A stretch of 59,161 nucleotides of DNA from an uncultured Gammaproteobacteria bacterium (GCA_964627055.1 CAZVGV010000005.1:1-59161); one strand, 5' to 3'; shown: positions 404 to 2,850, counted from the stretch's first letter. Numbers and translations: made by a program. Notes: generated by a model from the sequence alone, not told the origin.

Positions 404-513
404 TCTAGGTGCCTGTTGCGGGAAGGTAATACCTGTTCCCATTCCGAACACAGCAGTCAAGCTTCTCAGCCCCGATGGTAGCGCTTTTGCGCAAGAGTAG
501 GACGGCGCCTGGA
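404..513 (+). rRNA. rrf: 5S rRNA
   Basis: Conserved CCCATTCCGAAC loop C, CCGATGGTAG and GAGTAGG motifs; terminal helix TCTAGGTGCC/GGCGCCTGGA; about 80 nt after the 23S. Confidence 0.93.
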
Positions 514-544
514 CAGTGGATGTTTTTTGTTTCAAAGCTTTTAC

Positions 545-574
545 AAAAGCCGCTAATTTTAGCGGCTTTTGTGT
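545..574 (+). terminator. Intrinsic terminator of rRNA operon
   Basis: AAAAGCCGCTA-ATTT-TAGCGGCTTTT hairpin followed by T-rich run. Confidence 0.8.
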
Positions 575-576
575 TC

Positions 577-605
577 TTGACAGAAGTATGATAGTATCAT
601 ACCAT
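577..605 (+). promoter_or_regulatory. Sigma70-type promoter of RHH-NTase gene
   Basis: TTGACA (577-582), 17-nt spacer, TACCAT (600-605). Confidence 0.75.
586..602. promoter_or_regulatory. Perfect 17-bp palindromic operator overlapping spacer and -10
   Basis: GTATGATA-G-TATCATAC; extra half-site ATCATACCA repeated at 612-620. Confidence 0.7.
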
Positions 606-623
606 CTATTCATCATACCAAGT

Positions 624-1475
624 ATGAAAACGGAGAAAGAGAATAAGGATCGTTTGACTATTACGCTTTCGCCTTCGATTCTCAAGAAGGTTGATTCCCT
701 AATTGATGGGAAGGCGGTGCGCAATCGATCTCATGCGATTGAAACCATTCTCAGTCAGCATATTCTCTCCCGTGTGACCAAGGTCATTATTCTTGCAGGT
801 GGCAAGGGTGCCAATATGCGCCCGCTCACATACGAGATTCCGAAGGCTATGCTTCCGGTACATGACCGTCCGCTCGTTGAACATTCCATTACTTCTCTTG
901 TGGCTGCAGGATTGCGCGATATCACGATTGTGGTCGGGCATTTGGGCAACAAGGTAGAGCAGGCGTTTGGTGACGGCTCACGATTTGGCGCACGTATTAC
1001 GTATGTGCGGGACCTCGAGGAGTCTGGTACGGCGCAAGCTCTCTCTGCTGCGCGCAAGGTTGTAGGGGACAATCCATTCCTATTGCTTTATGGAGATGTG
1101 CTTGCATCGATCGACTGGTTGTCGCTTATCGACTTCCATGATCAGCAGGAATCACTGCTTACTATGGCAGTGACAACTGTAACAGACACGACGCCATGGG
1201 GAGTCGTTACAATGCAGGGTGCACATATCACCGGACTTGAGCAGCGACATGACGCTCCAGCTGGGAATAGTCATCTCATCAATTCCGGAGTGTATGTGGT
1301 TGATCCAAGTGTACTCACACGCATCACACCAAGCATGAAGAGCTTTGAAGATGAAGTGGTTGCGCCAATGACTGCACGTCATGAGGTTGCTGGGTATCAC
1401 TTCTCTGGTCAATGGTTCGATGTAGGTTCTTCTGCAGAATACGCTCGCGCGCTCAAGGAATGGTCTCCGAGCTGA
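624..1475 (+). CDS. Ribbon-helix-helix (CopG/NikR-like) domain fused to sugar-phosphate nucleotidyltransferase (NTP_transferase) domain
   Basis: N-term RLTITLSPSILKKVDSLIDGKAVRNRSHAIETIL (beta-alpha-alpha RHH); then ILAGGKGANMRPLT..PK, LYGD, WFDVG; ATG 624 chosen because the ORF-track extension overlaps terminator and promoter. Confidence 0.85.
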   Translation: MKTEKENKDRLTITLSPSILKKVDSLIDGKAVRNRSHAIETILSQHILSRVTKVIILAGGKGANMRPLTYEIPKAMLPVHDRPLVEHSITSLVAAGLRDITIVVGHLGNKVEQAFGDGSRFGARITYVRDLEESGTAQALSAARKVVGDNPFLLLYGDVLASIDWLSLIDFHDQQESLLTMAVTTVTDTTPWGVVTMQGAHITGLEQRHDAPAGNSHLINSGVYVVDPSVLTRITPSMKSFEDEVVAPMTARHEVAGYHFSGQWFDVGSSAEYARALKEWSPS

Positions 1476-1565
1476 GACTCTTCTCCCAACCTTCAACCAG
1501 ATATCTGTGCTTGTTCTGGTCGTAGATTGGGGGAAGGGCCTTAGCCCAACTGGTGGTGCTGTAAC

Positions 1566-2576
1566 GTGATGTGTGCACCGCATCTCACGTTGCCGCTTCA
1601 CCCGAAGTGGCCGAACATCGACAACCAAGGTAGGAGAGAACTCGTGCAATCGACTCATGGGGCGCGGTTCAAACCACGCCGAGCAGTGATTACCGACCTC
1701 GATGATTCACTGATCACGAGCCACGCGAGTGGTCGGGATCGGTTTGGGTGGGAGCCCATCGTTGAGGCGTTCGCCGCGTTTGCGGCGAACAACATCAAGC
1801 TCCACATCGTCACGCTCAACGGAGCGCCGTTTGTGGCTGGCATCTGCAATGGCATCAGCCACAAGGCTGCCGAGCACATGCTTGGTGATGTGCACGTCGG
1901 TGAAGGGAACGTGTCGCTCGTCGTGCGGGACAATGGTTCCTGTCGTGAGTGGTGCGAGGTTCCAATTCTGGACCCGCCCCCCATCGAGTGCGAGCTGGAT
2001 CGGGTGCGCGTGCGTCACATCGTGGCGCGAGTTGCACCAGATCTGCGTGTCCGCAGCGTCGGCATGTCGCTGATGGTTTCCTATTCGGTCGAACCGCACC
2101 AGCGGAGTGGCTGGATCGAGGAAATCCAAGAGGCAATCGACGGGGCATCAGAGCTGCAAACGCAGTGGGTGGTGGGTAACGGTGGCCACCCGCACATCAT
2201 CGACATCGTTCCAGCTCATGCTGCGGACAAGGGCAAAGGAATTGTTGCACTTCTCGCGCACGCTGAACGTGTCGGTCAGCCGATCGATCTGTCGGGGAGC
2301 GCATGGTTCGGCGATTCCGATGCAGATATCAAGGCGCTCGAGGAGCTCACGTCTGTGCGACGTCGCTCCGAAGGGAAGGCCATCGGCTTTGTCGCAACGC
2401 ACTCCGGTGCGTCCGCGGCATACATCGCAGCAGTTAGGGCAGCACCCTGCCCCTCCTTCGTCTCCAGTGAGATGCTGGCGGAGCGGGCTGTGCCGCAGAT
2501 GCTTGCTGAGTACGATCGGGTGATCGGGCTCGGCGTCAACAACAATCGCAACGGAAGCTGCTTCAACGTGACGTGA
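1566..2576 (+). CDS. HAD-superfamily hydrolase, subfamily IIB (Cof/sucrose-phosphatase-like); start uncertain
   Basis: Motif I DLDDSL, motif II IVT, motif III DKGKG, motif IV FGDSDAD. Confidence 0.75.
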   Translation: MMCAPHLTLPLHPKWPNIDNQGRRELVQSTHGARFKPRRAVITDLDDSLITSHASGRDRFGWEPIVEAFAAFAANNIKLHIVTLNGAPFVAGICNGISHKAAEHMLGDVHVGEGNVSLVVRDNGSCREWCEVPILDPPPIECELDRVRVRHIVARVAPDLRVRSVGMSLMVSYSVEPHQRSGWIEEIQEAIDGASELQTQWVVGNGGHPHIIDIVPAHAADKGKGIVALLAHAERVGQPIDLSGSAWFGDSDADIKALEELTSVRRRSEGKAIGFVATHSGASAAYIAAVRAAPCPSFVSSEMLAERAVPQMLAEYDRVIGLGVNNNRNGSCFNVT

Positions 2577-2586
2577 TTGGAGGGGA

Positions 2587-2850
2587 GTGATGCAGACGGT
2601 TACCTACGATGATGTGCAGATGGAGCAACTCATGCAGCGAGTGCTCGGGAGGTACTCGGTGTTCAATCGTGCGTTCATCTGCGAGCGTGTCGCCAGCTAC
2701 GATGACGTGCGTGCGAAGCGGCTCTTCCTCGAAGAACTCGCGACGATCGAGGCCAAGGACTGTCCTGCGGACGCGCCGAAGCGCCTCAGCAATCTGATGG
2801 TCTACTACGACCCGAACGATTTCGTCTACTGCGTACAGGAGACGCAGTAG
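2587..2850 (+). CDS. Small hypothetical protein (87 aa)
   Basis: SD-like GGAGGGG just upstream; follows the HAD gene; ends before a terminator. Confidence 0.6.
   Translation: MMQTVTYDDVQMEQLMQRVLGRYSVFNRAFICERVASYDDVRAKRLFLEELATIEAKDCPADAPKRLSNLMVYYDPNDFVYCVQETQ

What the first reader, a model, noticed from the sequence alone, without database searches (positions are those of the whole stretch)
577..1475. RHH-nucleotidyltransferase fusion with a perfect operator in its own promoter: candidate enzyme-derived sugar-nucleotide sensor
Seen: an N-terminal ribbon-helix-helix is fused to a full NTP_transferase domain whose signature GxGTR reads GKGAN, so the conserved Arg is lost while PK, GD and WFD are kept. 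The gene has a consensus promoter (TTGACA-N17-TACCAT) with a perfect 8-1-8 palindrome GTATGATA-G-TATCATAC covering the spacer and -10, plus a repeated half-site ATCATACCA 16 nt downstream. Established: RHH dimers bind short inverted repeats and often autorepress; the GxGxR Arg contacts the NTP phosphates in RmlA/GlmU-type enzymes. Inference: a one-component regulator that senses a sugar-1-phosphate or NDP-sugar through a weakened or dead enzyme domain. I do not know of a characterised regulator with this architecture.
Basis: partly seen in the sequence, partly recalled or inferred. Interest (0 to 1): 0.8.

Follow-up and report, generated by a model that had tools for sequence, protein, structure and literature searches.

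The report
NikR-like repressor fused to sugar-nucleotide enzyme
This gene of a tiny-genome (Patescibacteria) bacterium joins a nickel-regulator-type DNA-binding head to a sugar-nucleotide enzyme body that has lost a key catalytic arginine. It most likely shuts off its own promoter through GTATGA boxes, and it belongs to a large family I could not find described in print.

Summary
The gene at 624-1475 encodes a 283-aa protein: a ribbon-helix-helix (RHH) head (aa 10-47) and a full NTP_transferase domain (aa 53-277). The G-loop reads GKGAN. The promoter TTGACA-N17-TACCAT carries the palindrome GTATGATAGTATCATAC (586-602).

An 8-bp-arm palindrome is not rare by itself (47 in this genome). What is significant is that it is made of GTATGA words:
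- Four GTATGA/TCATAC hexamers lie within 42 bp here. This is the only such cluster in the 878-kb genome.
- 33 of 79 orthologue loci carry a perfect GTATGA-N4-GTATGA direct repeat over their own promoter.
- That repeat tracks gene presence: 33 of 44 carrier genomes against 6 of 38 non-carriers.

GTATGA is the E. coli NikR half-site. The family's invariant strand R-x-T-x-T and its RNRSHAIE turn align to NikR (profile E = 1.9e-5).

The palindrome is specific to this genus. Same-family relatives keep the direct repeat and a Lys where this protein has Asn64.

The enzyme domain is under strong purifying selection (dN/dS about 0.04). Four canonical pyrophosphorylases in the same genome keep the Arg.

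Best reading: an autorepressor that senses a sugar metabolite. DNA binding is well supported by comparison. Ligand identity and catalytic status are inferred only.

The parts
405..513 (+). 5S rRNA gene, the end of the rRNA operon directly upstream. This is context, and the linkage is conserved.
   Evidence: Rfam RF00001, 71 bits. A 5S gene lies upstream on the same strand within 3 kb in at least 32 of 82 orthologue loci.
543..572 (+). Hairpin ACAAAAGCCGCTAA-TT-TTAGCGGCTTTTGT with a T-rich tail. Probable terminator of the rRNA operon.
   Evidence: 14-bp-arm inverted repeat, shared with the same-genus locus L002. Function is inferred.
577..605 (+). Sigma-70-type promoter: -35 TTGACA (577-582), 17-nt spacer, -10 TACCAT (600-605).
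   Evidence: 10/12 match.
586..602 (.). Perfect 8-1-8 palindrome GTATGATAGTATCATAC. It consists of box 1 (GTATGA 586-591, + strand) and box 2 (TCATAC 597-602, which is GTATGA on the - strand). It covers the spacer and the first half of the -10.
   Evidence: It is unique in the genome.
613..618 (-). Box 3 (TCATAC), within the repeated ATCATACCA, near the predicted transcription start.
   Evidence: Conserved in L002.
622..627 (+). Box 4 (GTATGA), which contains the ATG start codon.
   Evidence: Conserved in L002.
624..1475 (+). Coding sequence of the RHH-nucleotidyltransferase protein (283 aa, P0001). The leader is about 12 nt and has no Shine-Dalgarno sequence.
   Evidence: The start is supported by the N-termini of orthologues.
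651..764 (+). NikR-type ribbon-helix-helix head (aa 10-47): strand R10-L-T12-I-T14-L, helix 17-26, turn R33-N-R-S36, helix 35-47.
   Evidence: Pfam RHH_1 E = 0.021. The family profile hits E. coli NikR at E = 1.9e-5 and CopG at 3.6e-3. AlphaFold2 topology. It is the only RHH_1-type head detected in this genome.
780..1454 (+). NDP-sugar-pyrophosphorylase-fold domain (aa 53-277).
   Evidence: PF00483 E = 1.6e-34. Foldseek matches GMPP, RmlA and MurU at E about 1e-20. dN/dS is about 0.04 against L002.
801..824 (+). G-loop G60-K-G-A-N64-M-R66-P67. The codon AAT at 813-815 (Asn64) stands where canonical enzymes have the catalytic Arg.
   Evidence: Alignments to solved enzymes and to the four canonical enzymes of the same genome. 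Family frequencies.
1242..1250 (+). Q207-R208-H209 in place of the E-K-P sugar-phosphate motif.
   Evidence: Family alignment: E in 114, K in 75 or R in 39, and P in 107 of 121. Own-genome enzymes all read VEKP. L002 has Q-H-H.

Best explanation
P0001 is a transcription repressor made of two parts: a NikR-type ribbon-helix-helix head and a sugar-1-phosphate nucleotidylyltransferase-fold body.

Dimers of the head read GTATGA boxes. Here four boxes span the spacer, the -10, the transcription start region and the start codon of its own gene. Bound protein would therefore block RNA polymerase. That would repress its own gene and any downstream sugar genes that are co-transcribed with it.

The enzyme-fold body supplies oligomerisation and a nucleotide/sugar-phosphate pocket. 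Occupancy of that pocket is proposed to change operator affinity, so that expression follows sugar-nucleotide status.

In this genus the ancestral operator, two direct boxes 10 bp apart, was remodelled into inverted boxes by a 10-nt indel. On the same branch the G-loop Lys became Asn.

Shown here: the architecture, conservation of the head, conservation and phyletic co-occurrence of the operator word, uniqueness of the site, and purifying selection on both domains.

Inferred: DNA binding itself, repression rather than activation, ligand control, and loss of catalysis.
For: (1) Head.
- R10, T12, T14 and R33-N-R-S-H-A-I-E40 are invariant or nearly so across 79-121 homologues, and are more conserved than the enzyme part.
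- The profile of the first 50 aa hits E. coli NikR over the whole RHH (E = 1.9e-5), then CopG.
- The AlphaFold2 model (pLDDT 87, pTM 0.82) shows an extended strand at aa 10-15 and helices at 17-26 and 35-47.

(2) Operator word.
- The NikR operator is GTATGA-N16-TCATAC (PMC7055735).
- The same hexamer occurs as a perfect 10-bp direct repeat within 200 nt upstream of 33 of 79 orthologues.
- 48 of 79 score at least 10/12, against 14 of 1580 random windows.
- At least 11/12 is reached by 35 of 72 own upstream regions against 2 of 467 upstream regions of other ORFs.

(3) Position. The boxes always overlap the core promoter, although their distance to TTGAC varies from 3 to 16 nt.

(4) Phyletic association in an evenly drawn sample.
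- 33 of 44 head-carrying genomes have an exact tandem box, against 6 of 38 non-carriers (p = 6e-8).
- The reversed-pattern control gives 12 of 44 and 3 of 38.

(5) This genome.
- It holds four hexamers in 42 bp, the only such cluster.
- No other RHH_1-type head is present.

(6) Enzyme part.
- N64 replaces the G-loop Arg, and QRH replaces EKP.
- RmlA-long, GalU, ManC-like and GlmU-N enzymes of the same genome keep GxGTR, and the first three also keep VEKP; GlmU-N reads VEFKE at that position.
- dN/dS is about 0.04, so the domain is in use.

(7) Neighbours in orthologue loci are sugar genes: TrmB, PGM/PMM, ROK, PfkB, PFK and GAPDH. Secondary exact sites precede a PfkB kinase, a transketolase and a GDH.
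Against: - There is no binding, expression or ligand data of any kind.
- The single-sequence Pfam RHH_1 score is below the curated cut-off.
- Foldseek of the isolated 52-aa head gave only non-significant hits, although they were RHH-type.
- Spacings between hexamer centres in this window are 11, 16 and 9 bp. They do not match the family's 10-bp period, so the binding geometry here is unclear.
- 31 of 79 orthologue loci show no good tandem box within 200 nt.
- K74, D158 and D266 (the catalytic Lys and the Mg ligands) are invariant, and position 208 stays basic in most members. This fits an active enzyme as well as a sensor.
- Counts across loci are not phylogenetically independent.
Confidence: 0.7

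Rival explanations
1. Trigger enzyme. The protein is still an active NDP-sugar pyrophosphorylase that also represses its own gene, as PutA, BirA and NadR do. DNA binding would be controlled by catalytic turnover rather than by simple ligand occupancy.
For: - K74, D158 and D266 are invariant in 121 homologues. Position 208 is K or R in 114 of 121.
- The fold is complete.
- Purifying selection is strong.
- Most family members have Lys at the Arg position, which might partly substitute for it.
Against: - The canonical G-loop Arg is present in only 1 of 121. The position varies between K, N, H, D and S, which is unlike a catalytic residue.
- This protein has uncharged Asn there and QRH for EKP.
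- The genome already encodes four canonical enzymes with intact motifs.
- The gene has no Shine-Dalgarno sequence and a very short leader. That suits a low-abundance regulator better than a metabolic enzyme.
Confidence: 0.2
2. The RHH-like segment is only an oligomerisation or interaction module of an enzyme. The GTATGA repeats are promoter elements or the site of another factor, for example the neighbouring TrmB.
For: - The boxes overlap -10-like sequence (TATGAT, GATAAT) in many loci.
- TrmB is a frequent neighbour, in 19 loci.
Against: - The box position relative to -35 varies from 3 to 16 nt, so the boxes are not a fixed promoter element.
- The word equals the half-site of NikR, the closest solved relative of this head.
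- The motif tracks presence of the head across genomes.
- TrmB is absent from most loci.
- No other RHH_1 head exists in this genome.
Confidence: 0.05
3. The palindrome and the hexamer cluster are chance features of an AT-rich promoter.
For: 8-bp-arm palindromes are common: 47 8-1-8 palindromes in the genome against about 13 expected.
Against: - About 5e-4 four-hexamer clusters are expected per genome.
- The same word is conserved upstream of orthologues that share only 42-70% protein identity.
Confidence: 0.02

Closest known systems
NikR (nickel-responsive repressor; E. coli 1Q5V/2HZV, P. horikoshii 2BJ1)
   Same: - N-terminal RHH with the same strand pattern (RVTITL in NikR, RLTITL here) and the same NRS-x-AI turn. 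It is the best PDB sequence match of the head.
- The same half-site word GTATGA.
- The same logic: an RHH head plus a C-terminal oligomerising ligand-binding domain.
   Different: - The C-terminal domain is an NTP_transferase fold, not the ACT-like nickel-binding tetramerisation domain.
- The boxes are 10-bp direct repeats in the family, or closely spaced inverted boxes here. They are not GTATGA-N16-TCATAC.
- The likely effector is a sugar or nucleotide metabolite, not a metal.
PutA (proline utilisation A), the classic RHH-enzyme fusion (from my own knowledge, not checked here)
   Same: An N-terminal RHH fused to a metabolic enzyme. It represses its own operon.
   Different: - PutA is a proven active dehydrogenase, and its switch is redox-driven membrane binding.
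- Its enzyme fold and operator word (GTTGCA) are different.
- Catalysis in the present protein is doubtful.
GMPPA and GalF, non-catalytic paralogues of NDP-sugar pyrophosphorylases. The GMPPA/GMPPB complex 7D72 is among the hits, and GalF appears as the NCBIfam entry 'GalU regulator'. Their roles are from my own knowledge.
   Same: The same fold, with an altered catalytic loop, reused as an NDP-sugar-binding regulatory subunit.
   Different: They regulate a partner enzyme through protein-protein contact and have no DNA-binding domain.
BirA and NadR (enzyme-repressors with a helix-turn-helix head; from my own knowledge)
   Same: One polypeptide couples a nucleotidyl-transfer pocket to operator binding.
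   Different: - The head is HTH, not RHH.
- The enzyme folds are different.
- Both are proven enzymes.
CopG / Arc / MetJ / omega (small RHH repressors)
   Same: The RHH fold. The strand KRLTITL is nearly identical in CopG. They bind cooperatively to tandem short boxes that overlap promoters.
   Different: They have no fused effector domain, apart from MetJ's small-molecule site. Their operator words are different.

Membership tests
Ribbon-helix-helix superfamily (Pfam RHH_1, PF01402) | N-terminal beta-strand followed by two helices | tested here: met
   AlphaFold2: aa 10-15 extended, helices 17-26 and 35-47, pLDDT 82-95 in that region.
Ribbon-helix-helix superfamily (Pfam RHH_1, PF01402) | Significant profile match | tested here: met
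   The single sequence is below the cut-off (E = 0.021, 15.2 against 20.5 bits). The family profile hits NikR at 1.9e-5 and CopG at 3.6e-3. Sister proteins with the same head pass the Pfam cut-off at 23-25 bits.
Ribbon-helix-helix superfamily (Pfam RHH_1, PF01402) | Dimerisation through the strand, and sequence-specific DNA binding | not testable with these tools
   Only indirect evidence: a conserved operator word upstream of the gene.
NikR | RHH head with the R-x-T-x-T reading strand and a GTATGA half-site | tested here: met
   R10, T12 and T14 are invariant or nearly so. The half-site is confirmed in PMC7055735. That these three NikR residues contact the bases is from memory; the structure paper was not held.
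NikR | C-terminal ACT-like tetramerisation domain with the high-affinity nickel site | tested here: not met
   The C-terminal 230 aa are an NTP_transferase fold. This protein is not a NikR.
NikR | Operator geometry GTATGA-N16-TCATAC | tested here: not met
   The family uses GTATGA-N4-GTATGA direct repeats. The window has GTATGA-N5-TCATAC-N10-TCATAC-N3-GTATGA.
NDP-sugar pyrophosphorylase (NTP_transferase, PF00483) | Fold and profile match | tested here: met
   E = 1.6e-34. Foldseek to GMPP, RmlA and MurU gives TM 0.7 and E about 1e-20.
NDP-sugar pyrophosphorylase (NTP_transferase, PF00483) | G-x-G-x-R signature with the phosphate-binding Arg | tested here: not met
   Asn64 is at the Arg position. 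The family has R in only 1 of 121.
NDP-sugar pyrophosphorylase (NTP_transferase, PF00483) | Catalytic Lys after the loop and the two Mg-binding Asp | tested here: met
   K74, D158 and D266 are invariant in 121 homologues.
NDP-sugar pyrophosphorylase (NTP_transferase, PF00483) | E-K-P sugar-phosphate motif | tested here: inconclusive
   QRH here and QHH in L002. The basic residue is kept as Arg here. The pairwise alignment to 7WHR places EKP on D210-A211-P212 instead, so the register is ambiguous.
NDP-sugar pyrophosphorylase (NTP_transferase, PF00483) | Pyrophosphorylase activity | not testable with these tools
   Needs an enzyme assay.
Trigger enzymes (PutA-type enzyme-repressors) | One protein with both proven catalysis and operator binding | not testable with these tools
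   The architecture is analogous. Neither activity has been measured.

The most novel reading that the evidence does not exclude
RHH-nucleotidyltransferase proteins may be the main sugar-status transcription factors of Patescibacteria and of some DPANN-type archaea. On this reading they reuse the NikR reading head and its GTATGA word with an enzyme-derived sensor.

This genus would then capture operator turnover in progress, from direct repeat to inverted repeat, on the same branch as the last step of catalytic decay (Lys to Asn).

The deeply conserved position of the gene directly behind the rRNA operon would tie sugar-nucleotide gene control to ribosome synthesis.
Probability: 0.25. Interest if true: 0.8.

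Novelty: new variant of a known kind. Interest (0 to 1): 0.6.

Why it matters
Almost nothing is known about transcription control in candidate-phyla-radiation bacteria, which cannot be grown alone. This finding gives a regulator, its predicted operator word and its target promoter. All three can be tested with purified protein or in E. coli.

It would be a clear case of an enzyme fold recruited as the sensor of a one-component regulator. It would also show one DNA-reading head (NikR type, GTATGA) serving different effector domains.

Practically, these genes are annotated in databases as mannose-1-phosphate guanylyltransferase or sugar phosphate nucleotidyltransferase. That inflates the predicted sugar-nucleotide capacity of these reduced genomes.

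Tried and rejected
- NikR-DNA structure paper (doi 10.1073/pnas.0606247103): not held. The statement that Arg3, Thr5 and Thr7 contact the bases rests on memory. A four-term paper search for it returned only unrelated papers.
- Regulon in this genome: there is no exact tandem GTATGA-N4-GTATGA. One-mismatch hits are at control level, 4 against 2. Five two-hexamer pairs within 30 bp match the chance expectation of about 6. I conclude that only the protein's own promoter is a credible target here.
- Regulon in 16 other genomes: the exact site is usually unique. Second sites precede different genes (GDH, transketolase and genes of unknown function), so no consistent regulon emerged.
- Foldseek of the isolated 52-aa head: the top hits are RHH-type (TCP domain, CdbA, HicB3) but all have E above 1, so the result is inconclusive.
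- Hairpin sequences between operator and start codon in L005, L007, L008, L018 and L020: I considered a conserved leader RNA. There is no Rfam match, and the core TGTCATCCYGA occurs 21 times across the loci. It is more likely a dispersed hairpin repeat.
- The palindrome as an RNA or DNA hairpin: rejected, because it lies upstream of the predicted transcription start.
- The alternative in-frame starts GTG 516 and ATG 588: rejected, because they run through the 5S/terminator region or the operator, and orthologues start 3-10 codons before RLTITL.
- The GC-rich ORFs at 1644-2850: no Pfam family, and only a weak Cof-type HAD-IIB hint.

Full report
**What is in the window**

The window begins with the 3' end of 23S rRNA (1-329) and a 5S rRNA gene (405-513). 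A strong hairpin follows at 543-572. Next comes a near-consensus promoter, TTGACA 577-582 / 17 nt / TACCAT 600-605 (10/12). The ORF starts at ATG 624 and ends at 1475.

The 283-aa product (P0001) matches Pfam NTP_transferase over aa 53-277 (E = 1.6e-34). It matches RHH_1 weakly but over the full length of that profile, at aa 10-47 (E = 0.021, below the cut-off).

The G-loop reads G60-K-G-A-N64. In alignments to solved GDP-mannose and UDP-glucose pyrophosphorylases, N64 stands where GxGTR has its Arg. P73-K74, G157-D158 and W264-F265-D266 are present.

**Is the palindrome more than chance?**

Not on its own. The window holds 13 perfect palindromes with 8-bp arms (gaps 0-3). The genome holds 47 8-1-8 palindromes against about 13 expected.

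The composition of the palindrome is what stands out. It consists of GTATGA and its complement TCATAC. Two more copies follow, TCATAC at 613 and GTATGA at 622, and the last contains the start codon.

GTATGA occurs at exactly chance frequency in the 877,580-bp genome (420 seen, 420 expected). This is the only cluster of three or more copies. About 5e-4 four-copy clusters within 42 bp are expected per genome. The 17-mer is unique even at three mismatches.

**The family**

Homologues with 96-99% query coverage, including the N-terminus, number in the hundreds. More than 550 species-representative genomes encode one, and nearly all are Patescibacteria-type MAGs.

The N-terminal 50 residues are the best-conserved part. 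R10, T12, I13, T14, D24, D28 and R33-N-R-S-H-A-I-E40 are invariant or nearly so.

A profile of this head hits E. coli NikR across the entire RHH (E = 1.9e-5), then CopG (3.6e-3) and P. horikoshii NikR.

AlphaFold2 with 121 sequences gives pLDDT 87 and pTM 0.82. Residues 10-15 are extended, and there are helices at 17-26 and 35-47, which is the RHH topology. The body superposes on GMPP, RmlA and MurU. Foldseek on the isolated head returned only RHH-type folds, but none was significant.

The head profile finds 735 clusters at 50% identity in 1.84 billion representative proteins, 198 of them at E <= 1e-10.

**The operator**

I extracted the upstream DNA of 79 orthologue loci. In 33 of them there is a perfect direct repeat GTATGA-N4-GTATGA (10-bp period, coding strand) within 200 nt of the start codon.
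- 48 of 79 score at least 10/12, against 14 of 1580 random windows of the same loci.
- Using upstream regions of other ORFs in the same loci as control, at least 11/12 is reached by 35 of 72 own regions against 2 of 467.
- The consensus is TTGAC-N(3-16)-GTATGATAtAGTATGATAAT. The boxes always overlap the core promoter, but their distance to the -35 varies. This argues for an operator rather than a fixed promoter element.

The phyletic test used an evenly drawn sample of the phylum. The head occurs in 45 of 301 genomes.
- An exact tandem box is present in 33 of 44 carriers and 6 of 38 non-carriers (Fisher p = 6e-8).
- The reversed-pattern control gives 12 of 44 and 3 of 38.
- These counts are not phylogenetically independent, so the p-values overstate the evidence. 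The direction is still unambiguous.

GTATGA is the half-site of the E. coli NikR operator, GTATGA-N16-TCATAC (PMC7055735). The family strand R-L-T-I-T-L matches NikR's R-V-T-I-T-L. From memory, NikR Arg3, Thr5 and Thr7 are the base-contacting residues; I could not retrieve the structure paper. The same head paired with the same word is the strongest single argument that this protein binds these boxes.

No other RHH_1-type head is detectable in this genome, which is 96% complete.

**What is special in this window**

The palindrome is not the family's operator form.
- Members of the same taxonomic family (L115, L117/L114) and other close relatives (L112, L113, L116, L118, L120) carry the canonical direct repeat. 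They have Lys at position 64 or, in L118 and L120, His.
- Only this genome and the same-genus genome (L002/L119, 91% protein identity) have inverted boxes.
- L002 reads GTATGA-N10-TCATAC-N3-GTATGA. The window has an extra 10 nt (GTATCATACC, a near-copy of the downstream TCATCATACC), and this insertion creates the 8-1-8 palindrome.
- The same branch carries K64N and EK(P) to QR(H) or QH(H).
- Spacings between hexamer centres are 11, 16 and 9 bp, not 10. How many boxes are occupied, and in what geometry, is open. This genome has no canonical tandem site anywhere.

**Enzyme or sensor?**

Among 121 homologues the Arg position is K in 93, N in 15, H in 7, D in 3, S in 2 and R in 1. K74, D158 and D266 are invariant. 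EKP is kept in most (E in 114; K in 75 or R in 39; P in 107).

The same genome encodes four canonical enzymes (RmlA-long, GalU, a ManC-like enzyme and GlmU-N), all with GxGTR; the first three also keep VEKP. The deviation is therefore specific to the fused protein, and the standard NDP-sugars do not depend on it.

Between the window and L002, dN is 0.07 and dS is about 1.7-1.9 (saturated), so dN/dS is about 0.04 over the enzyme domain. The domain is in use. Residue 208 is one of the few positions that differ (R against H).

I read this as a ligand-binding pocket kept under selection with catalysis reduced or lost. The invariant Lys and Asp residues mean an active trigger enzyme cannot be excluded for the family. 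It is less likely for this Asn64 protein.

**Context**

Downstream genes are co-directional: two GC-rich ORFs without family assignment (1644-2850; GC 0.60 against 0.51 for the genome, also present in L002), then ROK kinase, TrmB, a HAD hydrolase and GlmU-N-like genes. No convincing promoter or terminator separates them, with matches at chance level. Co-transcription from the regulated promoter is possible but not shown.

In orthologue loci the recurrent neighbours are TrmB (19 loci), an unknown 353-aa protein at +1 (15), PFK (11), PGM/PMM at +1 (9), ROK (8), PfkB (8) and GAPDH at +1 (5). Extra exact operator sites in other genomes precede a PfkB kinase, a transketolase and a glutamate dehydrogenase. 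All of this points to sugar and central-carbon control.

**Literature and earlier notes**

Four full-text searches that combined ribbon-helix-helix with nucleotidyltransferase, NTP_transferase, Patescibacteria, CPR or nucleotide-sugar terms returned nothing.

Earlier notes of this scan on other genomes describe the same family and the same NikR/GTATGA reading. I reached this reading, before opening those notes. I re-tested the claims here. The notes are not independent evidence.

**Verdict**

- The regulator reading is well supported by comparison.
- The palindrome is a genus-specific rearrangement of a conserved direct-repeat operator.
- Ligand sensing and catalytic death remain inferences.
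- Relative to published knowledge this is a new variant of the RHH-plus-sensor class of one-component regulators.

Noticed in passing
window 405-624; loci L002-L081, L112-L114: A 5S rRNA gene lies upstream on the same strand within 3 kb of the RHH-nucleotidyltransferase gene in at least 32 of 82 loci, and within 1.2 kb in 26 of them. In the window the gap is 111 nt. This is a lower bound from a single-sequence nhmmer query. With about one rRNA operon per 1-Mb genome, this is a deeply conserved linkage whose meaning is unknown. The boxes go with the gene and not with the rRNA.
   Followed up: partly
window 1500-2850: A GC-rich stretch (0.58-0.63 against 0.51 for the genome) holds two ORFs, 1644-2576 and 2587-2850, with no Pfam family. 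The first has DxD and GDSD motifs and a weak Cof-type HAD-IIB hit (E = 0.002). The block is also present in the same-genus locus L002. It looks like an older import inserted between the regulator and the ROK kinase. In a same-family relative (L114) a GH63-like hydrolase and an unknown gene sit there instead.
   Followed up: partly
L002 967-3326, against window 537-543: The same-genus genome has about 2.4 kb of extra DNA between the 5S gene and the terminator hairpin that precedes the regulator gene. In the window the two are adjacent.
   Followed up: no
L005, L007, L008, L018, L020 (leaders of the orthologous genes): Hairpin elements with the core ATGACA...TGTCATCC(C/T)GA lie between the operator and the start codon. 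The core occurs 21 times across the fetched loci and has no Rfam match. It is probably a dispersed hairpin repeat (MITE-like) rather than a leader RNA.
   Followed up: partly
proteins P0188, P0194, P0198, P0208, P0214, P0176: A second architecture carries the same NikR-like head (RHH_1 at 20-25 bits, three of the six above the 20.5-bit cut-off). These proteins are about 205-223 aa, and the C-terminal domain of about 165 aa has no Pfam match. Frames of this size also appear in several Patescibacteria genomes.
   Followed up: partly
L113 256-711: A LAGLIDADG homing-endonuclease ORF lies upstream of the 5S gene in a close relative, presumably inside a 23S rRNA intron.
   Followed up: no
genomes G000, G317-G340: The distribution is patchy. 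The head is present in 4 of 6 genomes of the window's family but in only 3 of 25 other genomes of its order, and in 45 of 301 genomes across the phylum. The gene is often lost, so it is not essential.
   Followed up: partly
database names: Source annotations call members of this family 'mannose-1-phosphate guanyltransferase', 'sugar phosphate nucleotidyltransferase' or 'NDP-sugar pyrophosphorylase'. The precomputed Pfam record for only one listed member, P0101, includes RHH_1.
   Followed up: no
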